Source of the DNA: Octopus sinensis
Taxonomy: Eukaryota
Reading direction: 5' to 3'
Length of the DNA stretch: 64,000 nt
NCBI RefSeq assembly: GCF_006345805.1
Contig: NC_043002.1
Location: 58,032,001 to 58,096,000, forward strand
The notes under the pieces: model-generated
Seen by the model: only the letters and a program-made list of their open reading frames with translations
Told to the model about the DNA's origin: nothing
Database searches by the model: none
Made by a program: the position numbers and the translations under genes
Shown: positions 1,897 to 64,000 of the stretch, one piece after another
Numbering within the stretch: the first letter of the stretch is position 1
Layout: every line of letters begins with the position of its first letter

Positions 1897-2440
1897 TCAT
1901 ATGTTGTGGTGTGTGTTAGTGCTCCATTCTAGTTTTCTATTCAGGCTAGGTTTATTTTCTATTATGTGTGTAGCTTCTGTAATTTGTCTAATTGTTGCAT
2001 CTGATCTATGTGTGGATAATATTTTAATTTCTATGTTATTGATTGATCCCCCGTCTTCTTGTTCGGCGTGTTGGTACAGAATCGATGAGCTTTTACCTTC
2101 CTTGAGTTGTCTCCAATGCTCATTTACCCGCTCTCCTATGCTTCTTGCCGTTTCCCCTACGTATGTCGTTGTCTTGTTACTGCATCGTCCCTCTATACAT
2201 CTTACACTATAGACTACATTTCTGGCTTTACAGTTTGTTTGTGGGCTAAATCTACATACAGTACAGTACTTATCCGTACAGGGGGTTCTACTAAAATGAT
2301 AGGTTCTACCAATTATAGATTTGATAGGGTTGCCTGGCTTTTCAACAACCTTAATTCTTAGCTTAAGTTTGTCTAGGGTCTTTCTAAAGCGATACGCTAG
2401 TTCACCTCCAGGGGTGGTGTCAATGAACATGACACTGGTA
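1897..2440 (-). pseudogene. PLE Zn-finger linker plus GIY-YIG endonuclease (frameshifted C-terminus of the RT ORF)
   Basis: CTDKYCTVC..NCKARNVVYSVRC..YVGETARSIGERVNEH..EATHI..SLNRKLEW; frame change near 2435. Confidence 0.9.
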
Positions 2441-4534
2441 TTTATGGCTATCATACCAAGAGTTGGCCTTCCCTATTTTCTTTTTTGTCCTTTCTATAGT
2501 GTTCCATGACTTGTTCCTATAGAGTGGGCAAATACCGTTCCTATCATCACATAATATATTATCAAATTTCTTAATGGCTCCTTTGTATACTCTGATCCTT
2601 TCTTTATGGCTGTAACCTGAGAACTGCATGCGGTGAATGAAATATTGTATGTGTCTCTTTAACTCTGTGGGCTCGCACATGCATGACACATTTCTCGTTA
2701 TTCTGACGAGGTCTGCCATCAAAATATTGAATTTGGCATTGTCCGCAATGGCTGAGTTCCGGTGGATCAAGTATTTTGAGGCCATAGGTTTGGCATAGTA
2801 TGAATGAAGGATTTGGGTTTTATTATTCACAATTTCTAGCCAGAGTTCGGTGTCTAGTACTGGTAGTCTATGGTTGGGGTGTTTAGTGGGGTAGTCTATT
2901 GTGACCTTAATACTCTGGTGGATGGAGTTAGCTATTTGCTGGATGCTCTCCATAGTATTAGTTTCTATTACTATATCAACATTACTCTCTTGTGGGGGTG
3001 CCTTTACCACTATGTTGATATCATCAACATAGCGAGAGTACATGTTTACGAGTATGGAGTTCTGTGTTAGGCGTTCTTTAAGCCTTCTCTCCCACCATAC
3101 CATGAAAAGGTTGGCCACATCACCAGCGATACTAACGCCGATGGCTGCCCCCTCGTCCTGGGCATATATTTTATTATTAAACTTAAACTTGTGGCCTTTT
3201 AGGGTAATTCTTATACTAGCTCCTAGTGCATGTGCGATCATTTTCTTTATCTGATGGACATTTGCGGGGCTCCGTATGGCTCTGGTCCATCCGCGCCATC
3301 TTTCTATATGTGTCTTCCTAGCCATAGAAGTAATTGTGGGCGGTCTACCCCTTAAACATCTACTGGGGCAGAAACTACTAAGATTATGTTTATCTAAGTA
3401 TTCAGTATTACATGTCAGTCTAAGTAGGAGGCCCAGTTCTTCTGTGTTGACATTACAGAACTCCACCTGGCTCTCATTGATCATCTCCACGCACTTCTCC
3501 ACCGCAAAATCTACGTCGATCGATGGGTATAGGGATACCACATCCATGCTACCCACCATACATCCTGTCAGGTCACAAGTGCTGTTACAGTCATCGATCC
3601 TGCTGAGGAGATCTTCTGTGCTGTCACAAACATCAGGTGACATCCGGATTATAGGGCGTATGATCATTGAGAGGAAGTAGGAGATTCTGTAATTGCTAAC
3701 GATATTCGCTCCACAGACTGGTCTTGTTGGTGGTCCTGCTATAGGGTCAGTAATTATTTTATGGTCCTTGCGAAGTCCATACAGTGCCGGGATATCATTG
3801 TTCCAGGCTTGGAAATTATTTGCTGTACGTTTCTGGGGTCCCAGAACAATTGTCCACATCATCATGTGGGCGTTGAGGACCTTTTCTCTCTCCTCATGTG
3901 CCTGTACAGTTGTTATCTTTGTATTGGCGATATGAGGTTGCATTGCCTGGATGTAGTTCGGTAAGCTGTCTATTGACATCCTGCCGGACTTATCTGTGAG
4001 ATGGCATACCACCTCTCCGTTCCTCGTGCGCTGAATGAGCTTATGTAGGCCACATGCAGGTTTAATCCCGAGTTGTTGGGCCTCTGTCTTATTCTGTCTC
4101 TGTCTCTTAGTGTATAATCCTAAAATCTGTCTAAGTTTGGTCCTAGCTATAGTGAACTGTGCTTCCATGTGGTCATTATTATGTCTAGGGATGTAGACTC
4201 TTTTGTTGAAGGGTAATGTTGTTGGATAAATCCGGCTCATGCAGTAAGTTTTGTCACATCCGTTGAAGAATTGAGTGTCAAAGGGGTGGGTATACATGTC
4301 AAAGGTCATTCTAGGGTTATCTTCATTATCGTTACTGTTTCCATCATCAGCCTCCCTATTATTATTACCACCATTACCACTACTACTATTATTACTATTA
4401 CCACCACAACTACCATCATTACTACTTCTACTATTACCACCACCACTACTACTACCACTATTATTGTTATTACCATTATTCCTACCAATATCTGTTTCAA
4501 CACATGACTTCACATAAAAAATCTTGCACAACAA
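2420..4534 (-). CDS. Penelope-like reverse transcriptase
   Basis: TDKSG, LYGLRKDHK, RPVCG, SMDVVSLYPSI, QDEGAAIG, RYVDD and LPVLD motifs; N-terminal ~70 aa is low-complexity N/S/G. Confidence 0.9.
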   Translation of the reverse strand: MLCKIFYVKSCVETDIGRNNGNNNNSGSSSGGGNSRSSNDGSCGGNSNNSSSGNGGNNNREADDGNSNDNEDNPRMTFDMYTHPFDTQFFNGCDKTYCMSRIYPTTLPFNKRVYIPRHNNDHMEAQFTIARTKLRQILGLYTKRQRQNKTEAQQLGIKPACGLHKLIQRTRNGEVVCHLTDKSGRMSIDSLPNYIQAMQPHIANTKITTVQAHEEREKVLNAHMMMWTIVLGPQKRTANNFQAWNNDIPALYGLRKDHKIITDPIAGPPTRPVCGANIVSNYRISYFLSMIIRPIIRMSPDVCDSTEDLLSRIDDCNSTCDLTGCMVGSMDVVSLYPSIDVDFAVEKCVEMINESQVEFCNVNTEELGLLLRLTCNTEYLDKHNLSSFCPSRCLRGRPPTITSMARKTHIERWRGWTRAIRSPANVHQIKKMIAHALGASIRITLKGHKFKFNNKIYAQDEGAAIGVSIAGDVANLFMVWWERRLKERLTQNSILVNMYSRYVDDINIVVKAPPQESNVDIVIETNTMESIQQIANSIHQSIKVTIDYPTKHPNHRLPVLDTELWLEIVNNKTQILHSYYAKPMASKYLIHRNSAIADNAKFNILMADLVRITRNVSCMCEPTELKRHIQYFIHRMQFSGYSHKERIRVYKGAIKKFDNILCDDRNGICPLYRNKSWNTIERTKKKIGKANSWYDSHKYQCHVH

Positions 4535-4670
4535 ATATTTAAACGTATATATATATATATTTATATATATATGTATATATATATATAATTGATATAGGAT
4601 AAAATTTTTTTCGGGAAAAATTTTTTATCAATGGCCAGCATATCAAAAAATGCCTTTAAAGGTAAAATTT

Positions 4671-23959: not shown

Positions 23960-23963
<4 letters not shown>

Positions 23964-24129
23964 CGCAAAAGAAATAGACAAAGAAAAATCCAATAAACGC
24001 AAAAGAAATAGACAAAGAAAAATCCCATAAACGCAAAAGAAATAGACAAAGAAAAATCTCATAAACGCAAAAGAAATAGACAAAGAAAAATCCCATAAGC
24101 GCAAAAGAAATAGACAAAGAAAAATCCCA
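23960..24129 (+). repeat. 5 x 34-bp tandem repeat at the 5' junction of an R4/Dong copy
   Basis: Unit taaacgcaaaagaaatagacaaagaaaaatccca starting at 23960, 23994, 24028, 24062 and 24096. Confidence 0.95.
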
Positions 24130-24919
24130 GCAATGGTTGAGAAGCTCAGGACTCAAAGCAGAAACAGAGGGATTTTTAATTGCAGCACAAGACCAAAGCC
24201 TCCCCACCAGAAATTACCAAAAACATGTAATGAAAAGAAATATTACAAGTAACTGCAGAATATGTGGAGATGAACAAGAAACAATAAATCATATTATCTC
24301 TAGCTGCCCAGTCTTGGCTAAGAAGGAATATATTCACAGACATGACAGAGTTGGAACCTACATACATTGGAAGCTATGCCAACATTATGGAATAACAACA
24401 GAAAAAAGATGGTATAGGCACACACCAGAAAAGGTCACAGAAAACGAGAAAACAACCATACTCTGGGATATGCCGATACACACAGATAGAGAAATTAAGG
24501 CCAACAGACCAGATATAGTTGTCAGAGATCATGAAAGAAAAAAATGCTTTTAATTGATGTATCAATACCGGCAGATGACAACGTGTCTCTAAAAGAAATG
24601 GAGAAACTCTCAAAATACAAAGACCTGGAAATAGAGGTAACTAGAATGTAGAACCTGAAAACAGAAACAATTCCTATCATAGTAGGTGCATTAGGCATGA
24701 TAAAAAAAATATTCAGACAAATACATAACAAAAACACCAGGACTTACAAACACATACATACAGAAAATTGCACTACTAGGCACTGCACACATCCTACGCA
24801 GAACACTTTCCATACAATAACCATCAGAGCATCACAACAAATCACAGCACATACCCAAAGGCACACAGTGCTGCGCTCGGTAGTGAAGTGAAAGCACGCT
24901 ATAAAAATAAAACTACTGA
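23960..24919 (+). mobile_element. 5'-truncated R4/Dong-type LINE (RLE domain) in (TAA)n
   Basis: ETEGFLIAAQDQ, CRICG..ETINHIISSC, RHDRV, WDMPI..RPDIVV, IDVSIP; (TAA)n on both flanks. Confidence 0.9.
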
Positions 24920-25069
24920 ATAATAATATAATAATAATAATATAATATAATAATAATAATAATAATATAATATAATAAGAATAAGAGAAGAAGAGAAGAA
25001 GAAAGAAGAAGCAAGAAGAAGAAGAAGAATACATACATTATATATATACAATTATATATACATACAGTG

Positions 25070-35171: not shown

Positions 35172-35375
35172 TAAATAGTTAATGATAATAACAAAAGAAA
35201 ACGTAATAAGAATGAGTGAGTTTTTCTACATGTTTACCACTTTAAAAAGCGAACATGGTTCCAACAGAGAGGTAAAAACAAGCAGCAAAACAGACGGAGA
35301 GATATATGAATCTCAGAAAAGAAATTCTGAGAATCAAAAGTAGTTGAATGTGTTGCCATCATAGATTTAAAATAG

Positions 35376-36010
35376 AAGGCGGTGGGCTGGCAGAAACGTT
35401 AGCACGCCGGGCGAAATGCTTAGCGGTGTTTCGTCTGTCTTTATGTTCTGCGTTCAAATTCCGCCGAGGTCGACCTTATCTTTCATCTTTTCGGGGTCGA
35501 TAAATTAAGTACCAGATGCGTACTGGGGTCGATCTAATCGACTGGCCCCTCCCCACAAATTTCGGGCCTTGTGCCTAGAGTAGAAGAGATTGTATATTTA
35601 AAATAGAAGGCAGCAGGCTGGCAGAATCGTTAGCACGCCGGTCGAAATGCTTTGCGGTGTTTCGTCTGTTTTTACGTTCTGAGTTCAAATTCCGCCGAGA
35701 TCGACTTTGCCTTTCATCCTTTCGGGGTCGATAAATTAAGTACAAGGGAAACACTGAGGTCGATCTAATCAACTAGTCCCCTCCCCCATATTTCAGGCCT
35801 TGTGCCTATAGTAGAAAGGATTATATATTTAAAATAGGGTGGCAGGCTGGCAGAATTGTTAGCACGCCGGGCGAAATGCTTAGCGCTGTTTCGTCTGCTT
35901 TTTCGTTCTGAGTTCAAATTCCGCCAAGGCCGACTTTGCCTTTCATCCTTTCGGAATCGTTAAAATTAATACCGGGATCGATCTAATCGACTCAGCTCCT
36001 CCCCACGAAT
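35376..36010 (+). mobile_element. Three head-to-tail SINE family B copies
   Basis: Each unit is preceded by atttaaaatag; ~230-bp period. Confidence 0.85.
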
Positions 36011-38174: not shown

Positions 38175-40177
38175 TTTTCTCTAGTTTCAGCTCAGAGCTG
38201 CGGCCATGCTGATGCACCACCGTTTTGTGCTACACTGTTATTACGAAGAACCTCGTCTAATATGTGGCACTTGGTGAAGAATGGAGTTTGATATAGCTAC
38301 TCTCATTTGCACCTCTTGCCGTGAGGTAGGTTCATCTGGGACTCTCGACAGGAAGATGTCCAGCTTTGATTTAAAAACCACTACATCTACTTTGTGCAAG
38401 TTCCTCAGACTCTTTGGGAGAATATTAAAAAAACTGTGGGCCCTTGAAACCCAGGCTGTTGCAGAAGCTGGTCCTGAAGCATGATGGCATTGCTGGGATC
38501 TTTGGCACTATGCAGTGTCGTCTCGTTCTAGCATTGGTGTAGCTTACAATGCCAAAATTTGGCACAATTCCTTCCAGGATCTTCCAGACATATATTACTG
38601 CATACCTCTCCCGTCTTCTCTCCCGTCTTAGCTGTTTCAACCTTTCACAGTAGCTTAGCTGTTGCAAAGAGACGATCTTTGTGAATCTTCTCTGGATTGC
38701 TTCAATGTCCGCTGTTAATTTTACACTCGTGAGTGACCATAGCTGTGACCAGTAATCCAGGTGGCTGAGGACGAATGTCCGCCAGAAGACCATCATGGTT
38801 TCCTTATCTCTGGTTCTGAATGTTCTTAGGATCCACCCAGCCAGTCGTCTGCACTATGTCGCCATCCTGGTAATGTGCACTTGGAAAGAGGTATCATCAT
38901 TCATGTCGATACCCAGGTCCCTCACAGACTTAGGCTCTGGGATTGAAATTATCTGTGGACCGGTGTATCCTGTAAGTTTAATATTCAGTTTTGGATGCTG
39001 GTAGCGCAGGGCCTGGAATTTTTCAGCATTAAACTGCATATTATTATCCTCAGCCCATCTGTAGATTGAGTTCAACTCCTGCTGCAGGTGTGCAACATCG
39101 CTGGGGTTCTGTATTTTCTGCGAGACTTTCGTATCGTCTGCATAGCTGATCAGAGTGGCTCTCCGGGCATTTGAGGGCATATCTGAGAGGGCCACTATAA
39201 AAAGCAGTGGTCCCAAGAGAGTGCCCTGTGGAACACCGCTCACTATTTGTGTGTTCATAGAGGTGGCTCCATTAACCACTACTGCCTGACTCCTATCTTT
39301 CAGGAAGTCATGTAACCACACTCCAAGTTTTCCAGCTACGCAGAGGTCACGCAGTTTGTGGCATATCATACCATGATCCACCTTGTCAAAAGCTTTTGCA
39401 AAATCAAGGTAGATTACGTCCACATTTGATTTGTTGAGTAACTACCTCAATACTCAGTCATAATGCTGTAAGAGCTGGGTCAGGCAGCTCCTACCTGGTC
39501 GAAAACCATGCTGGGTATCACTCAGCAAGTTATTTTCCTCAAGGAATGCGATTAGTTTCTTTCTGACTATCCGTTCCATGACTTTGCTGATGTGTGAAGT
39601 CAGAGAGATAGGCCTATAGTTTTTGGCATCTGCTCTACTTCCCCCTTTATGTATTGGGCATATTATTCCCTCATTCACTTGCTTGGCAGTTTGCCATTCG
39701 CAAGAAAGCTCTGGAAGAGAATCTTGAGGGGTTTTGCCAGGGCATGCTTACACGCTTTGAGGAGGATGGCTGGGAAACCATCTGGACCAGCAGCTGAGTT
39801 TGTGTCCACTTCATCTTTGGCTAGTAGGACATCTTTTTCGCTAATGTCAATACATTCTATTGTAACCGCATCGCTGGTTATAGGTGAGGCGGCAAAGAAG
39901 TTCACCGGTTCGTTCACTTGTCTGTGTTCCAACGTGGTGGTAAAGACACTTTTGAACTGGTCATTCAGCATCTCACTGATCTTAGTTGGACTGTCTGTGA
40001 GGGAGCCATCCTTTTGTAGGAGGGGTCCTATCTTGTAATGCACTGAGACTGTTTCTTTCGCGTAATGAAAGAAGGTCTTTGGGTTTGATTTAATGTTTTT
40101 TATAACCCAGGCTTCTTTGTCTGCTTTCTCCTTCACATAGGATTGTTGCAGCCTTTTTTCGATCTCCATCAGTGTTG

Positions 40178-40182
<5 letters not shown>
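38175..40182 (-). mobile_element. 5'-truncated, frameshifted CR1-group LINE (RT and 3' UTR)
   Basis: AAGPDGFP, NYRPISLTS, QHGFRPGRSC, YLDFAKAFD, GVPQGTLLGPLLF, YADD, IQRRFTK..ERLKQL motifs across four ORF fragments; (AT)n on both flanks. Confidence 0.92.
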
Positions 40183-40222
<40 letters not shown>

Positions 40223-41771
40223 CAGGCTTCCATAGTTTTCAAACGTGTCCACACCGTGCATTTACTGTTGAGATTTTTGTCAACTTACACAAAGTGGTAG
40301 ATCTTTGCCGTCATTTTTCACATATCAAACGTTAAACTATATTTTATTCCTGCCATTTTATCCTAAGGTACCATTCCACAGATCCGTTGCTCTTCTTTGA
40401 GCCAGTGTTTATCTTTGTTTTTCTTAGCAGTAAAGGAAAAGGTTGAACCCATCACTTGAATTTTAAAATGATGCTTCTTCTGTTTTCGATACTTGTAGAA
40501 TCGTGATACTCCCACCTCGTGGTGCTAATACTCAGTTAAGTGAAAACGTTTTGTAAGTTGCCTCGTTTCGCCAGTGGTATGATACGAGGAAGATATCGCG
40601 ATATCTTCTTCGCATTCAATATAATTACAGACATTGGTGTTAATTTAAAGCAAATTGTCTTGAGTTATCCAGTCTAGTAAAATCTGAGACGTCACTTCTG
40701 CAAAGTTAAGGAAAGCCGCTTCGTTTCCAGTTTATCAAGCAAAGCTGATTATTTTTAAAGATGTCTCAAGTGGTTTTGATCGATCAAATGAATTTGAATT
40801 TTAATCCATCCCGATCCAAATCAATTGCTTTTCAAATATTTGACTAAGTCTTGGTATTTCAAAACAAATAAATCTGCTTTAAGTAATTACCGAAGACTAC
40901 ATTCAGTACACTTAGTTTAAACGCTTCAACCATCTCTGTCTTTACGTAAGATAGCCATTTATTGTAGAACAACTGTCAAGATGAGAAATGACTGTTAAAC
41001 CATTGTTGTAAAATATGTAATTAGCAACAAGGTTTCAAACGAGAACTCTTTTCTTTCTTGTAATATCAAAGTGCTAACGATGAATTCCTGTGGTGTAAAA
41101 AGGTTTGTTACACTGTGGAAAGGATTGTGTACAATAGAGGGGAGAGGGAATAGAGGGGGTTAGTGGGAGGGAAGCGGGGAGAGAGGGAGAGAGGAGGTGA
41201 GAGGGAGAGAAAGGAGTAAAGAGGGAGAGAGAGGAAGAGATAGAATCAAACGAATGCTTCAAGTGAGTACACACATACACACACACACACAGACGAATAC
41301 TAGCTGCGTGTGTGTATGTGTGTATGTGTGCGTGAGAGAGAGAGAGGAGTGGTGTGTGCATATGTGCGCACACCATTAGTATTCTTATGTATGGTAACTA
41401 AATTACCTTTATTTCACAATTATAATAAGCTATTTATTTAGTTATTCATTTATTTATTTGTTTGAAGTCAAAATTAACCGAGTGAATAGAACTACTCTAA
41501 GCGTGCACCTATTGGCTGAAAAATTCGGAGGAAAAAAAAAACACTTGCTATAATACTCTTCGTTAGCAGGGTAACTCAGGATCTATGCAGTTTCTTTCTC
41601 ACCCCTGAATGGTGTTCCTTCCTGCTGGCAAATTTCTTGTCAGAATTAATTATTACTGCTATTTTCTTGTATTGTTCACACGTGTTTATGAAAATTCCCA
41701 CTGTCCTTTGTATTGTTCCAATTGATTTTTGCGGCCCTTGTGGCAAATAAAGAGTTACTGAAAAGTTTTAC

Positions 41772-43324: not shown

Positions 43325-43890
43325 CTCAATGCACAAGGCCCGAAATTTTGGAGGAGAGGGCCAGTCGATTACATCGACCCTAGTACGCAACTGGTACTTA
43401 ATTTATCGACCACGAAAGGATGAAAGGCAAAGTCGACTCGCGGAATTCGGAATCGGAATTGAACTCAGAACGAAACGGCAGACGAAATACCTATTTCTTT
43501 ATACCCAAAGAGGAGACAACACAAGGACAGACAAACACGGATGATATTAAGTCGATTTATAACGACCCCAGTGTGTAAACTGGTACTTAATTTATCGACC
43601 ACGAAAGGATGAAAGGCAAAGTCGACCTCGGCGGAATTTGAACTCAGAACGTAACGGCAGACGAAATACCTATTTCTTTACTACCCACAGAGGAGACAAA
43701 CAAGGACAGACAAACGGATTAAGTCGATTATATCGACCCCAGTGTGTAACTGGTACTTAATTTATCGACCACGAAAGGATGAAAGGCAAAGTCGACCTCG
43801 TCGGAATTTGAACTCAGAACGTAACGGCAGACGAAATACCGCTAAGCATTTCGACCGGCGTGCTAACAACTCTGCCAGCTTGCCGCCTTT
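43325..43890 (-). mobile_element. SINE family B trimer
   Basis: Three tandem cores. Confidence 0.85.
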
Positions 43891-45213: not shown

Positions 45214-45325
45214 TCTCTCTCTCACACACACACTCCTCTCTATTATTATTATTATTATTATTATTATCATTATTATTATTATTCTATTCAATGCCTGGAA
45301 TCGAACCACTACGCCATATTCCCAC

Positions 45326-45400
45326 AGGTATATGGCGTAGTGGTTAATAGCGCGGGCTACTAACCCCAAGATTCCGAGTTCGATTCCAAGCAGTGACCTG
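45326..45400 (+). mobile_element. tRNA-like Pol III head (A box TGGCGTAGTGG, B box GAGTTCGATTCC)
   Basis: A box at 45333-45343, B box at 45376-45387; inverted deleted copy immediately upstream. Confidence 0.7.
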
Positions 45401-45457
45401 AATAATAATAATAATAAAATATAATAATAAATAATAATAATAATAATAATAATAATT

Positions 45458-45565
45458 ACGCAGAACACTTTCATACAATAACCATCAGAGCATCACAACA
45501 ATCACAGCACATACCCAAGGCACACAGAGCTGCGCTCGGTAGTGAAGTGAAAGCACGCTAAAAAA
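45458..45565 (+). mobile_element. R4/Dong 3' tail fragment inserted in (AAT)n
   Basis: Near-identical to 24796-24905. Confidence 0.9.
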
Positions 45566-45649
45566 ATATAATAAATATAATAATAATAATAATAATAATA
45601 TAATAATCTAATAATAATAATAATAATAATCAATAATAATATAATAATA

Positions 45650-45706
<57 letters not shown>

Positions 45707-45762
45707 CAACAACATCGAAAAATAACTTAGGAATAAAAACCCAGGTTCGAAATTTCCCCAAG

Positions 45763-45806
45763 ACACCTGATGAAGGCTGGAGGGTATATCAGCCGAAATG
45801 TTGTGT
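45763..45806 (+). ncRNA. Minimal type I hammerhead motif
   Basis: ACAC-CTGATGA-A-GGCTG-gagggtatat-CAGCC-GAAA-TG-TT-GTGT. Confidence 0.75.
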
Positions 45807-46102
45807 TAACAAACAAGATGAGGGCAAATATCCATCAAATGTAAATAATGTAAATAATGAGTAAAGAGTAGCCAATGAAATCAAGAATCCATGTCGTATG
45901 CTATTGGATACAACTGTATTTATCTATTTTTACTTTTGCTTTACCTGTCTCAGTCATTAGACTGCAGTTATGCCGATGTACCGCTTTGAAGAATTTTTAT
46001 CAAACGATTCGACCCCGGTACTCATTTTTAAAACTAGGTATTCTATCGGTTTCTTTCGCCGAATCGCTACGACAACCGATACTTGTTTGTCTAAAATTAA
46101 TG

Positions 46103-58886: not shown

Positions 58887-60092
58887 TTTTTTTTCCTCTT
58901 CTTTTAAATTTGCTTCCATTTCTTGCCGAGTGTCTTCCCGACTCCTAGGGCAAAGAAACTCATAGTATACATTGGTAGGCCATTAAACTAAACTCACTAA
59001 TTCGTTCATTTTTTTAAAAAGTTAAATTAAAATACATGAGCAGCAACAGTTCTCACATCGACAATGCTCTTCTCAATACGTGTGATGTACCAGTTAAGAC
59101 AATCTTTTGCACTTCTTGCAGGGATGGTAAGCCAGGGATCATTCTCATATAATTTTCGGTTCCCTTCTTGATCATTCCTAGTGCTCCTACGATCACTGGT
59201 ATTGTAACCGCCTTGAGATGCCACATTTTCTCAATTTCAATGAGTAGGTCTTTATATTTTCTGCGCTTCTCAAACTCATTCGCCGAGATATTATGATCAC
59301 AGGGGATGCTCATGTCGATCAATAAGCAAACTTTATTGTTTTGGTCTTTCACAACAATATCCGGTTTATTGGCTTTGATGGTTCGGTCTGTATGTACTGG
59401 AAAGTCCCACAGAATCGTTACATTTTCTCCTTCAGTTACAGCTTCAGGGTGGTGATTTGTCGGCAGATTTGATATTGTAATGCCGACTTATTAGCCAGTG
59501 GAGATATTGGCCAACTCTGTCATGTCTTAATTTATACTCCACTGGTGCTAAGACTTTACATCCAGAGATTAGGTGGTCCACTGTTTCAATCATGTCGTTG
59601 CAGAATCGGCATTTTGGGTCTGCTCCATTTTTCATCACATTGGCCTGGTAGTTCCGGGTTAATAGGCTTTGATCTTGAGCAGCCAGGATGAAACCTTCGC
59701 TCTCTGCTTTTAGTCCTGAGCTCCATAGCCACTGATAGGTTTGCTTCTGGTCAACATCAGCTTGTTTGCTACGGGCCACATATTTGCCGTGCAGAGGTTT
59801 CTCCTCCCACCTATCAGCCAATTGCTCGTGCGCTTTTTTCGTTGCCATTATTTTCACCTTCTTTGCAACAATAGTTGCCGTACTTCCCTCGGGTTGTTCA
59901 GTTTGGGTATCCTGCACGAGATCAATAGCAAAATTTTGGCTTTCCTTTATGATAGAGTGAAGCTTCTTTCGTCTCTCGTGATTTTCCACGAGCTTTAGCA
60001 TCCAGTCATTCGTTATTTTAAGATATTTGGCCAGTGCAATTGTGGTTGTTTTGTAAGCTAGTTCAAATTGTTGTTGTTTTAAGGTCAAATTG
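58887..60092 (-). mobile_element. 5'-truncated R4/Dong-type LINE, second family
   Basis: KPLHGKY, ESEGFILAAQDQ, CRFC..ETVDHLISGC, RHDRV, KPDIVV, IDMSIP; (TAA)n flanks. Confidence 0.9.
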
Positions 60093-60184
60093 GATTATTA
60101 TTATTATTATTATTATAATTATTATTATTATTATTATTATTGTTGTTGTTGTTGTTGTTGTTATTATTATTATTATTATTATTA

Positions 60185-60219
<35 letters not shown>

Positions 60220-60222
<3 letters not shown>

Positions 60223-63200
60223 TAGTATATTTAATATATCGTGCTTTCACTTCACTACCGAGCGCAGCTCTGTGTGCCTTGGGTATGTGCTGTGATTTGT
60301 TGTGATGCTCTAATGGTTATTGTATGGAAAGTGTTCTGCGTAGGATGTGTGCAGTGCCTAGTAGTGCAATTTTCTGTATGTTATATGTGTTTGTAAGTCC
60401 TGGTGTTTTTGTTATGTATTAGTCTGAATATTTTTTATCATGCCTAATGCACCTATTATAATAGGAATTGTTTCTGTTTTTAGATTCCACATTCTGGTTA
60501 CTTCTATTTCCAGGTCTTTGTATTTTGAAAGTTTCTCCATTTCTTTTAGAGACACGTTGTCATCCGCTGGTATTGATACATTAATTAGAAAACATTTTTT
60601 TCTTCATGATCTCTGACAACTATATCTGGTCTGTTGGCCTTAATTTCTCTATCTGTGTGTATTGGCATATCCCAGAGTATGGTTGCTTTCTCGTTTTCTG
60701 TGACCTTTTCTGGTGTGTGCCTATACCATCTTTTTTCTGTTGTTATTCCATAATGCTGGCATAGTTTCCAGTGTATATATATGTCCCAACTCTGTCGTAT
60801 CTGTGAATATATTCCTTCTTAGCCAGGACTGGGCAGCCAGAGATAATATGATTTATTGTTTCTTGTCCATCTCCACGTATTCTGCAGTTACTTGTTATAT
60901 TTCTTTTCATTACATGTTTTTGGTAATTTCTGGTACCCCAATTAAAAATCATTCTGTCTCTGCTTTGAGTCTTGAGCTTCTCAACCATTGTTTGATTTTT
61001 CTTTGTCTATTTCTTTTGCATTTAGTTTAGTCCAGTATTTGCCATGAAGGGGCTTTTCTTGCCATCGTTTTATCATGGTTCGTTGCTATTCTGTTTTTAG
61101 TTTGGATTTCATTTGTTTTATAGCTTTTGTTGTTTCTTCATCTTCTTCTTCTTCTTTTTCTTCATATTTGTTAGGTGGTATGATTTCTTGTTTGTATTTG
61201 TCAGCTTCTTTAAATACTAAGAACAGTTTTTTGTTTTGCTCGTGTTTTGCCGCTATTTGTATCAGTTTTCCTTCCTTCTGAAGTAGATATTTTTGCAGTC
61301 CTATGGTGGTTATTTTATAGTAGTTTTCCAGCTGTATAAGGCCTCTACAACCATCTATACGTTGTATATATAGCCTTTCTATGTCAGATTTTGGGTGATG
61401 CATCCTAGATCCTGTCATTATTTTTCTTGTTTTCCTATCTATTTTGGTCAGGTCATTTAGTGTCCAGTTAAGGATATTGTAGCTGTAACTTATAACTGGG
61501 ACAGCTAAAGTGTTGATACCTATTATCTTGTTTTTAGCATTGAGCTCTGTTTTCAGTATTGATCTAACTCGTCTATAATATTCTTTTTTTTATTTTCTCT
61601 TTCATTTGTGTGTGTTGTGTCTTATCTAGTTCATGAATTCCTAAGTATTTGTAAGTTTGGCTTTGGTCTAATTCTTTTATTTCATTGGTTTTATCTAGTG
61701 TGATGTTGCTACTCTTAATTAGTTTTCCTTTTTTCATGGTTACTTTGGCGCATTTCTCTAATCCAAATTTCATATCTATTTCTTTGGTAAATCCATGAAC
61801 TGTCTTTAGTAGTGTTTCCAGCTGTTTGTCATTTGTAGCGTATAGTTTTAAGTCATCCATATATAAAAGGTGGCTGATCTTTTTGCCGTAACATTTATAT
61901 CCGCATCCAGTTCTGTTTAGCATATCCGATAGAGGTGATAGTGCCAAGCAGAAAAGGAGTGGAGAGAGCGTATCTCCCTGGAATATTCCTCTTTTAATGG
62001 GGATGGCTTTGGTTTTCACAAGTTCCTCTTTTGTTTGGAGCTGTAGCAGTTTGCCATTTATTCATAGAGTGCTCTATGAATTTTATGATTGTTTGTGCAA
62101 CTTGGTTCATGGCTAGTGTTTCGAGAATCCATGTGTGGGGGATGCTATCAAACGCCTTTTTGTAGTCGATCCAGGCCATATTGAGGCCTTTCTTCTTTCT
62201 GTGGCTGTCTTCAGTTATGGCTTTATTGATCATTAGTTGATCTTTACAGCCATATGAGCCTTTGCGGCATCCTTTCTGCTTTTCTGGAAACAGGTTGTTT
62301 TCGTCCAGGTGCTTGTTCAATCTTTGCGATATCACTGCAGTAAATGCTTTATACATTGTAGGGAGACAGGTTATAGGTCTGTAGTTTTCTGGTTTTGCTG
62401 TCTCATTTGATTTGGGAATTAAGATGGTTTTCCCTTTCGTGAGCCATTCAGGCATTGTCTCTGGCTCTGCCAGTATGTTGTTAAAATTTTCAGCCAGCTT
62501 TTTGTGCATTCCTGTTAGATATTTCAACCAGAAGTTGGGGATCTTGTCATGCCCAGGTGTCTTCTAGATGCTTAGTCTTTGCAGTGCCTGGGTGACCTCT
62601 TCAGTTGTTATGGGAGTCCAAAGTTGCTCAGATGCTGAGTTTGTTGCTTCAATACTCCTTTTTTTTGGTTGTTCGTTCGCCGACCATATTTCTCTCCAGA
62701 ATTCATCCACTTCTTCTGCCGTTGTTGCTGCAGTGATTTCTATTTTATTTTTGCCAAGTTCTTGGTAGAACTTTTTGGGGTTGGAGTTGAACTGTTTGTT
62801 TTGTTCAAAGAAACGTTGGCGTTTCTCGTACCGGCGGATCCTTTGTTCTTTGGCAAGGATATCTTGCTTCAGCTTTTCTTTTATCTCAGGTAAATCTTTT
62901 TCTGTGGTGTTATATTTGCGGAGTATTTTTGTTTGTTGCTCAGTAGCGTTGATTGTCTACTGATTTCATTAAGAATCGACAGATCTTTTCTGATTTTTTG
63001 TAATTTCGTTTGGATGTTATTTATCCACAGGGTTTGTTTGGGTGGTGGTACTCCTGTTTGGATGGGTTTGAGGGAGTATCCAGCTTCTTTTGTGGCTGCA
63101 GTGGCTGCTGCATATACTAAGTCATTTAGCTCAGTGATATCGCTTTTTGTTTCAGTGGCTATTAGTTCTGTGACGGCTAGGTTTATGTTGTTTATAATTG

Positions 63201-64000
63201 ATGTTGTTGTTTTGTCTATTTTGATTTTTGGGAGGTATGGTCGGTGGTCCATTTTGAGCTCTGTGGTTTTCAATTCTTTGATTATTCTACTTTTTATATT
63301 ATCATAATCATTAGGCTCCCCTTCGTTGTTTCCAGGTTTTAGATTTGTGTCGCTTTCTATCTCATCCGTATGTTTTTTTGTCGTATTTTGGCTTGCTGTT
63401 TGTCGTGTATTATTATGTATCCTTACGGTCTGGGTTCGTTGTTTTTTGTTTACATCGTTTTTGTTGGAAATGCTACGTTTGTCTTCGTGTTTTACTGTTT
63501 CAGTGTTTATATTATTTGGCATTGTTGTGTGGCTTCTATCTACATTTTCCTGATGTATTTTTTCTTTTAAATGTTCTATTTCTATTTCTGATATTTTTTT
63601 TTTTTTGTGTTGAGAATATATCTCCGTATATTTGCTAGTTTATTAGGGCTCATTGTTGTATCCAGGTCTTTATTTATGTTATTTTTCTTCCATATTTTGT
63701 ATGTATGTGTTGTTGTATTTTCATTCTTTGGGTAGAGCACTGCTGTAAAGTAAGCGTGTAGGATAGAAATGTATTCCTCACGTGTCCATTTATGTCTTTT
63801 GGGTTTTATTTGCGGGACATGAGGAACAACGTCCGGCCCATTATTTTGACGGTCGTCATTTTCGTAGGGTACCGGTCCGTTCATTTCTGTTGCCACATTG
63901 TTTTGCACGGGTAGTTTTTCGTACATTTTATGTTGTAAGTTTACAGTACGTACTTCCCGATTGTGATTCTTGGGTTGAATAATACCGGTATTATTTAATT
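60220..64000 (-). mobile_element. R4/Dong-type LINE (RT + RLE), frameshifted, may run off the window
   Basis: KWTREE, NYRPITCL, IDYKKAFD, GIFQGDTLSPLLF, LYMDD, YKYLG, RLYIQR..RGL, CRI..RYDRV; same family as 23960-24919; 3' end abuts (TAA)n. Confidence 0.93.

What the first reader, a model, noticed from the sequence alone, without database searches (positions are those of the whole stretch)
45240..45860. tRNA-promoter head linked to a hammerhead: candidate Pol III ribozyme-SINE
Seen: an A/B-box head (45326-45400), then an (AAT)n tract interrupted by a Dong 3' tail, then a 150-bp block with a canonical minimal hammerhead on the same strand (45763-45806). Directly upstream is an inverted, internally deleted copy of the head with (TTA)n, the same fold-back signature as the PLE fragments. 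Established: Pol III boxes plus a hammerhead occur in schistosome SM-alpha repeats. Inference: a self-transcribing, self-cleaving element mobilised by PLE enzymes, carrying an internal (AAT)n that itself serves as a Dong target.
Basis: partly seen in the sequence, partly recalled or inferred. Interest (0 to 1): 0.7.

Follow-up and report, generated by a model that had tools for sequence, protein, structure and literature searches.

The report
Penelope transposon end with tRNA promoter
This is one worn copy of the terminal repeat of a very abundant Penelope-type jumping gene; the repeat begins with a tRNA-like segment that likely acts as the element's promoter, so it is the end piece of an element that encodes its own enzymes rather than a separate SINE.

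Summary
Observation confirmed; interpretation needs correcting. Head, (AAT)n and hammerhead block form a real family (about 20,000 arms estimated), head before hammerhead in every linked locus, inserting with Penelope scars. But it is not a stand-alone SINE: it is the pseudo-LTR of an autonomous Penelope/Poseidon element. The head lies directly behind that element's endonuclease gene (27 of 29 loci), and the hammerhead block is the start of its ORF. Solo and ORF-linked copies share the same variants. The oddity is that 5' ends pile up at the head's first base (27 of 38 arms that reach it stop there), where a Pol III start is expected, and no TTTT run is shared among 13 near-full copies (a control family has 5; p about 0.06-0.1). 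Best reading: RNA starts at the tRNA-like head and Penelope RT run-off makes the short copies. Pol III transcription and ribozyme cleavage are not shown; RNA-seq was uninformative. The window copy is decayed and carries a secondary Dong tail. The scan noted this kind of repeat before on other DNA, as a Penelope-borrowing SINE; the autonomous parent was not in the notes I saw.

The parts
45241..45283 (-). (AAT)n tract of the inverted left arm; the rest of that arm (hammerhead block, tail, TSD) is missing
45284..45319 (-). Inverted head with an internal deletion that joins A-box end to B box at a short microhomology
45320..45329 (+). Centre of the palindromic junction; 45320 is position +1 of the pseudo-LTR, where family 5' ends pile up (inferred RNA start)
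45320..45400 (+). tRNA-like head of the pseudo-LTR, A box 45333-45343, B box 45378-45386; nearest to tRNA-Arg(TCT) among six isotypes sampled
   Evidence: not called by ARAGORN or Rfam
45401..45456 (+). (AAT)n tract, first part
45457..45560 (+). Secondary insertion: 5'-truncated 3' end of a TAA-targeting LINE (Dong/R4-like; the name rests on recalled motifs)
45568..45712 (+). (AAT)n/(AAC)n tract, second part (partly the inserted LINE's tail)
45713..45859 (+). 3' part of the pseudo-LTR, which is the first ~40 codons of the Penelope ORF; start codon position 45733-45735 reads ATA here; right end at 45859 without the 33-bp tail
45762..45807 (+). Minimal type I hammerhead of the Penelope kind, decayed at position 15.2; predicted cut after 45802

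Best explanation
This is a decayed solo pseudo-LTR of an autonomous Penelope/Poseidon retroelement whose terminal repeat begins with a tRNA-like A/B-box head that likely serves as an internal RNA polymerase III promoter. Shown: the parent unit is head, (AAT)n, an ORF of about 2.45 kb that starts just before the hammerhead and encodes RT and GIY-YIG endonuclease, a 23-nt trailer, then the head again. Inferred: RNA starts at the head's first base. The element's protein nicks both target strands and starts reverse transcription at two sites about 120 and 155 nt into the ORF (by analogy with Anolis PAc). Initiation in the first repeat of the RNA runs off its 5' end after about 300 nt; the cDNA end, a small palindrome, folds back or anneals and gives head-to-head arms inside a 9-15 bp duplication. 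Initiation in the second repeat gives the ORF-linked copies. Short copies are thus mostly by-products of the parent, though intact ones could be transcribed and moved in trans like a SINE. The hammerhead is inherited from the ORF start and does not set the ends. A Dong-like LINE later landed in the (AAT)n.
For: Head directly behind the endonuclease gene in 27 of 29 EN-anchored loci; 373 exact trailer-head junctions. A 391-aa frame runs from the hammerhead block into RT and aligns through the hammerhead codons with an 847-aa relative, 49% identity; relatives include an 836-aa Anolis protein. In 32 two-arm insertions, 19 have a duplication of 9 nt or more; 18 of these 19 have the tail on one arm, none on both, as described for Penelope elements (PMC8557442, PMC3846280, PMC11167929). 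5' ends: of 90 arms in genome order, 38 reach head positions 1-12 and 27 stop there, against 18 of 56 over the next 69 nt; of 95 heads reaching +1, 63 stop at it (27 as perfect fold-backs), 25 run on into the trailer, 7 are unclear. Of 6 upstream repeats that precede ORF sequence and reach the head's start, 5 stop there. No TTTT run is shared by two of 13 near-full copies; a second Penelope family in this genome has 5. Solo and ORF-linked arms share variant spectra. Two insertions share one internal-deletion junction, so RT-less templates can move in trans.
Against: No Pol III transcript is shown. RNA-seq reads lie equally on both strands, with no start or end peak, and step up about 2.5-fold at the head, like the DNA counts (1124 vs 373). 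The TTTT absence is weak: the codon-shuffle null expects 2.3 per 2 kb, so p is about 0.06-0.1 (my Poisson estimate), with one control family. Palindromes at pseudo-LTR 5' ends also occur in rotifer Penelopes, where TATA/Inr-like motifs were noted in a related pLTR (PMC3846280), so the pile-up need not mean Pol III. The head is not called a tRNA by ARAGORN or Rfam. Pol III RNAs are uncapped (recalled), so how the ORF is translated is unexplained. One direct ORF-repeat-ORF tandem (L326) shows longer read-through templates exist.
Confidence: 0.58

Rival explanations
1. Passenger head: a tRNA-derived fragment was captured at the pseudo-LTR boundary; transcription is by Pol II or read-through, and the hairpin at the trailer-head junction fixes the 5' boundary by RT stalling or self-priming.
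For: The junction can fold in the long RNA (-9.2 kcal/mol). Palindromic 5' ends are known in rotifer Penelopes and were explained by self-priming (PMC3846280 passages). Drosophila Penelope uses a LINE-like internal promoter (PMC2377424 abstract). RNA-seq looks passive. The head's cloverleaf is degenerate.
Against: Stops fall at the far (5') side of the hairpin rather than at its 3' base, and few copies end 3-11 nt into the trailer (7 of 95 at most). A and B boxes fit consensus, with +1 13 nt before the A box. No shared TTTT run in the unit.
Confidence: 0.27
2. One reading: an independent Pol III SINE lineage that parasitises Penelope enzymes in trans and accounts for most short copies.
For: Short copies outnumber ORF-linked ones (79 of 90 arms stop before the ORF body). 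Trans-mobilisation of one RT-less derivative is shown. Solo copies carry both promoter boxes and RT start sites.
Against: The whole unit is part of the autonomous element. No variant marks solo copies apart from ORF-linked ones among 240 arms. Recurrent length variants keep the frame (-3 nt; spacer multiples of 9 in 91 of 97), apart from a one-base homopolymer slip seen in ORF-linked copies too; these units are also natural slippage units, so this is weak.
Confidence: 0.12
3. SM-alpha or retrozyme-like element: tandem transcription, hammerhead cleavage to monomers and circular RNA intermediates.
For: Promoter-like head followed by a type I hammerhead, as drawn for schistosome elements (PMC6765202 passages).
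Against: Copies are dispersed inverted pairs; ends lie well past the cut site; no start or end peak at the cut site in RNA reads; minimal hammerheads were inactive as monomers (PMC4209133) and dispensable for PAc insertion in vitro (PMC11167929).
Confidence: 0.03

Closest known systems
Penelope/Poseidon EN+ elements (Anolis PAc, PMC11167929; Adineta Pen2/Pen2a/Pen3a, PMC3846280; D. virilis Penelope, PMC2377424)
   Same: Single RT + C-terminal GIY-YIG ORF; pseudo-LTR overlapping the ORF start; minimal hammerhead near the start codon; optional 30-40 bp tail on one arm; inverted upstream repeat; about 10-bp duplication; palindrome at the repeat's 5' end; heavy 5' truncation.
   Different: The repeat begins with a tRNA-like A/B-box cassette and an (AAT)n tract. 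The passages I read describe TATA/Inr-like or LINE-like internal promoters and no tRNA module.
Schistosome SM-alpha / Sj-alpha SINE-like elements (PMC2770079, PMC6765202 passages)
   Same: tRNA-related Pol III-type promoter linked to a hammerhead; very high copy number.
   Different: Those are non-coding, often tandem, with an active hammerhead that frees monomers. Here the hammerhead is minimal, lies in a Penelope coding frame and does not mark the ends.
Small-RNA-bearing LTR derivatives Cassandra, Helenus, Ajax (PMC10886601, start of abstract) and the tRNA-like sequence in LINE RTE-1_DAn (PMC5786205 passage)
   Same: A small-RNA-derived cassette inside a retrotransposon or its terminal repeat.
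   Different: Different classes (LTR, LINE); Cassandra, Helenus and Ajax are non-autonomous, while here the cassette is in the repeat of an autonomous Penelope.
Non-autonomous Penelope derivatives such as Chlamydomonas MRC1 (PMC8557442 passage)
   Same: Short pseudo-LTR-bearing units moved in trans.
   Different: No tRNA head in the passage read; here most short copies look like direct by-products of the parent.

Membership tests
Penelope/Poseidon EN+ PLE (pseudo-LTR) | Linked to a single ORF with PLE-type RT and C-terminal GIY-YIG endonuclease | tested here: met
   Pfam gave no hit on two fragments; assignment rests on homology to PF00078/PF28514/PF26215 proteins and motifs read by eye
Penelope/Poseidon EN+ PLE (pseudo-LTR) | Repeat present at both ends of the ORF and overlapping its start | tested here: met
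   L281 has head-hammerhead-tail at both ends; L283 and L284 have the hammerhead block at both ends; open frame through the hammerhead
Penelope/Poseidon EN+ PLE (pseudo-LTR) | Inverted upstream arm, tail on one arm only, short target duplication | tested here: met
   Family: 19 of 32 two-arm insertions with duplication, 18 of 19 with one tail. Window copy: inverted arm present, duplication not found
Penelope/Poseidon EN+ PLE (pseudo-LTR) | Clade placement by RT phylogeny | not tested
   No tree built; similarity and domain order only
PLE minimal hammerhead (PMC4209133) | Core boxes, extra base between 9 and 10.1, G10.1-C11.1, long helix II, short helix I | tested here: met
   core intact in 181 of 240 arms
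PLE minimal hammerhead (PMC4209133) | Palindromic 15.2-16.2 for dimer formation | tested here: inconclusive
   Met in the commonest form (88 of 181 arms), not in the window copy
PLE minimal hammerhead (PMC4209133) | Self-cleavage | not testable with these tools
   No end peak in RNA-seq, which is a weak test
tRNA-derived SINE | tRNA-related 5' head with A and B boxes | tested here: met
   49-52 identities to genomic tRNA-Arg(TCT), z 6.5-6.9 against shuffles, six isotypes sampled; ARAGORN 0 of 42 loci and Rfam negative
tRNA-derived SINE | Non-autonomous unit distinct from its partner, sharing only a 3' tail | tested here: not met
   The whole unit, head included, is part of the autonomous element
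tRNA-derived SINE | Independent amplification (own subfamilies) | tested here: inconclusive
   No solo-specific variant among 240 arms; sample is about 1% of copies; one RT-less derivative moved in trans
tRNA-derived SINE | Transcription by RNA polymerase III | not testable with these tools
   Indirect only: 5' pile-up and T-run absence
SM-alpha / non-LTR retrozyme | Head-to-tail arrays with unit ends at the ribozyme cut site | tested here: not met
SM-alpha / non-LTR retrozyme | Circular RNA intermediate | tested here: inconclusive
   No end-to-start joint among the 15 joints shown of 49 in ordinary RNA-seq

The most novel reading that the evidence does not exclude
An autonomous Penelope retrotransposon driven by a captured tRNA-type Pol III promoter: the full 2.8-kb RNA, ORF included, is made by Pol III through a unit free of T-run terminators, the internal promoter is regenerated in every full copy, and the solo repeats are ready-made SINEs, showing a SINE being born from its own autonomous parent.
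Probability: 0.3. Interest if true: 0.8.

Novelty: new variant of a known kind. Interest (0 to 1): 0.55.

Why it matters
How Penelope elements are transcribed and why they leave inverted repeats is still open (PMC8557442, PMC11167929). This family gives thousands of natural records with one sharp 5' end, which makes the run-off and fold-back model directly testable. If the head is the working promoter, a protein-coding retrotransposon would be using Pol III, and the line between SINE and autonomous element would blur. For annotation, it warns that tRNA-plus-hammerhead repeats read as SINEs may be Penelope terminal repeats.

Tried and rejected
Rfam at gathering score on the window: 0 hits; at relaxed E-values on four loci and one short stretch: only simple-repeat noise. 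ARAGORN: 0 in the window and 0 of 42 loci. Pfam: 0 families on two ORF fragments. PDB sequence search: nothing significant. No RNA holder was listed on record by the run search; not used as evidence. RNA against DNA coverage along a full-length copy was not obtained, so that comparison is open. Target-site duplication for the window copy: not found within 20 kb upstream at up to 2 mismatches. A SINE-specific subfamily: not found. A large mini-element lineage from the L328/L329 junction: only those 2 exact matches. Rejected: ribozyme cut as element end; tandem retrozyme; Dong tail as part of the element (6 of 90 loci only). Identity with published octopus SINEs (OK, OR1, OR2) could not be checked: the paper is not held. 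Repbase, Dfam and SINEBase were not searchable, and I read no supplements; either may already hold this family.

Full report
Observation. The head has consensus A and B boxes (45333-45343, 45378-45386; box consensus recalled). The hammerhead (45762-45807) has the features listed for Penelope minimal hammerheads in PMC4209133 (parts 1-2 of 4 read), but position 15.2 is T here and C in the commonest form (88 of 181 core-intact arms; 59 of 240 arms have a broken core). The ORF start codon position reads ATA. The left arm is cut short and no duplication was found. This copy is decayed.

A real family. A 32-mer of the hammerhead has 2632 exact matches in the 2.72-Gb genome, control 0. It is exact in 11 of 87 arms from loci not chosen by it, giving roughly 21,000 arms (my estimate, range about 12,000-40,000). 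Median divergence from the column majority is 4.9%. Head precedes hammerhead on the same strand in 23 of 29 (hammerhead-anchored, best hits), 16 of 30 (genome order) and 24 of 29 (head-anchored) loci, never in reverse order. Five organism labels in public runs hold over half of the words. The host is likely an octopus; that label comes from earlier scan notes and recall, not from a tool naming it.

Penelope scars. Among 32 two-arm insertions, 19 show a flanking duplication of 9 nt or more (two low-complexity matches dropped); 18 of the 19 carry the 33-bp tail on one arm, one on neither (counted by eye). This is the structure described in PMC8557442 and PMC3846280 (passages). The two arms of an insertion share minor non-CpG variants more than shuffled pairs (76 vs 28.4 over 54 pairs, 0 of 2000 shuffles), so both come from the same template or source.

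The parent. Four loci showed coding sequence upstream of the head or in its place; it translates as a GIY-YIG endonuclease (motif name recalled). In 27 of 29 loci anchored on it the head follows directly (these were best-scoring hits that reach the gene's 3' end). Upstream lie RT motifs and then the same repeat again. In L182 a 391-aa frame runs from inside the hammerhead block into RT. It aligns through the hammerhead codons with an 847-aa protein at 49% identity. Relatives are about 700-900-aa RT proteins, among them an 836-aa Anolis protein, which I take to be PAc-like. So the finding is the pseudo-LTR of an autonomous Penelope/Poseidon element, and the hammerhead block is the ORF start, as in PAc (PMC11167929, parts 1-2 of 4 read). 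First-look candidates fall from 3073 for the endonuclease end to 262 for the N-terminus (query lengths differ), the usual 5' truncation.

Where copies begin. Of 90 arms taken in genome order on contig C1 (the first 100 listed matches minus 10 not fetched), 20 begin in the hammerhead block, 14 in or at an interrupted (AAT)n, 18 in head positions 13-57, 27 at positions 1-12, and 11 run into the ORF (automatic classes, a few doubtful). That is about 10% stops per base at the head's start, against 0.6% in the rest of the head and 0.2% in the ORF (my arithmetic). Of 95 heads reaching +1, 36 start there plainly, 27 as perfect fold-backs, 25 continue into the trailer and 7 are unclear. Genome counts agree: 1124 heads with the +1 motif, 373 trailer junctions, 300 long fold-backs (patterns differ in mutability). 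Among upstream repeats that precede ORF sequence and reach the head's start, 5 of 6 stop there (L184, L188, L329, L331, L335; L326 continues). Position +1 is a G 13 nt before the A box, which suits a Pol III start (recalled).

Pol III through the ORF? In 13 near-full copies there are 14 runs of four or more T, none shared by two copies (dinucleotide null 38.9 in total). A second Penelope family in this genome, in whose loci no part of this repeat was found, has 5 shared runs in its ORF (null 4.2). A codon-shuffle null for our family expects 2.3 in 2034 nt, so zero ancestral runs has p of about 0.06-0.1; the three particular copies tested held 1 run (p 0.30). Suggestive only.

SINE or by-product? 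Nine variant features among 240 arms show no clear split between solo and ORF-linked copies. Recurrent indels keep the frame, apart from a homopolymer slip found in both classes. Against that, L328 and L329 are separate insertions that share an internal-deletion junction and private variants, so an RT-less template was moved in trans at least once (only these two exact matches).

Head origin. Best match among the tRNA genes of 30 loci (six isotypes) is tRNA-Arg(TCT), 49-52 identities, z 6.5-6.9; others follow closely, so the isotype is tentative. ARAGORN and Rfam do not call it.

RNA. Three RNA-seq runs from one study of an organism that holds the family (about 6% of each read) give thousands of diverged reads, equal on both strands, with no start or end peak; depth rises about 2.5-fold at the head, like the DNA counts. 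This fits passive co-transcription. Strandedness and species identity are unknown and short Pol III RNAs would be lost, so it does not test the model.

Dong. The 104-bp insert matches the ends of two longer LINE fragments in the window that end in (AAT)n. It sits upstream of the hammerhead in 6 of 90 loci, and another element in 4. Dong elements target TAA repeats (PMC3812793 passage). It is secondary.

Literature. Ten searches found no paper describing a tRNA module in a Penelope pseudo-LTR; the library lacks most subscription journals and repeat databases, and I read no supplements. Passages only: PMC8557442, PMC6962438, PMC10886601, PMC4758252, PMC5786205, PMC7229834, PMC3812793, PMC3846280, PMC2770079, PMC6765202; abstract only: PMC2377424. 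Eight earlier scan notes describe this or similar repeats, mostly as a Penelope-borrowing SINE, and one a coral case. I saw them after forming a similar first reading; the summaries shown did not mention the autonomous parent.

Verdict. That this is a solo pseudo-LTR of an autonomous Penelope: about 0.95. That RNA starts at the head under Pol III: about 0.6. New variant of a known kind; interest 0.55.

Noticed in passing
window 1897-4624 (-): Near-intact copy of a second, much younger Penelope-like family (734-aa frame plus EN piece; 39 other matches at 97-99% identity); used as the T-run control.
   Followed up: partly
L328 and L329 (G000 C3, about 8.41 and 9.43 Mb): Two separate insertions of an internally deleted mini-element, ORF start joined to head +1; evidence of mobilisation in trans.
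   Followed up: yes
L326 588-2322 (oriented): Direct ORF-repeat-ORF tandem, showing longer-than-unit templates.
   Followed up: partly
window 23960-24920 (+) and about 59050-63640 (-): Fragments of R4/Dong-like LINEs inserted in (AAT)n; the second covers RT and endonuclease in several broken frames.
   Followed up: partly
window 31242 and 31532 (-): Two further hammerhead-like motifs with 5-6 bp helix II, 290 bp apart, unrelated to this family.
   Followed up: no
window 51408 (-) and 51440 (+): The same hammerhead-core-like motif on both strands, as an inverted pair without helix II.
   Followed up: no
L007, L018, L028, L050: A second element ending in (AAT)n repeatedly inserts into the repeat's (AAT)n tract (4 of 90 loci); not identified.
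   Followed up: no
window 35361-35969 and 43363-43840: Tandem arrays (periods 231 and 170) of what look like SINE pieces.
   Followed up: no
window 38425-40238 (-): Broken LINE RT fragment of another clade.
   Followed up: no
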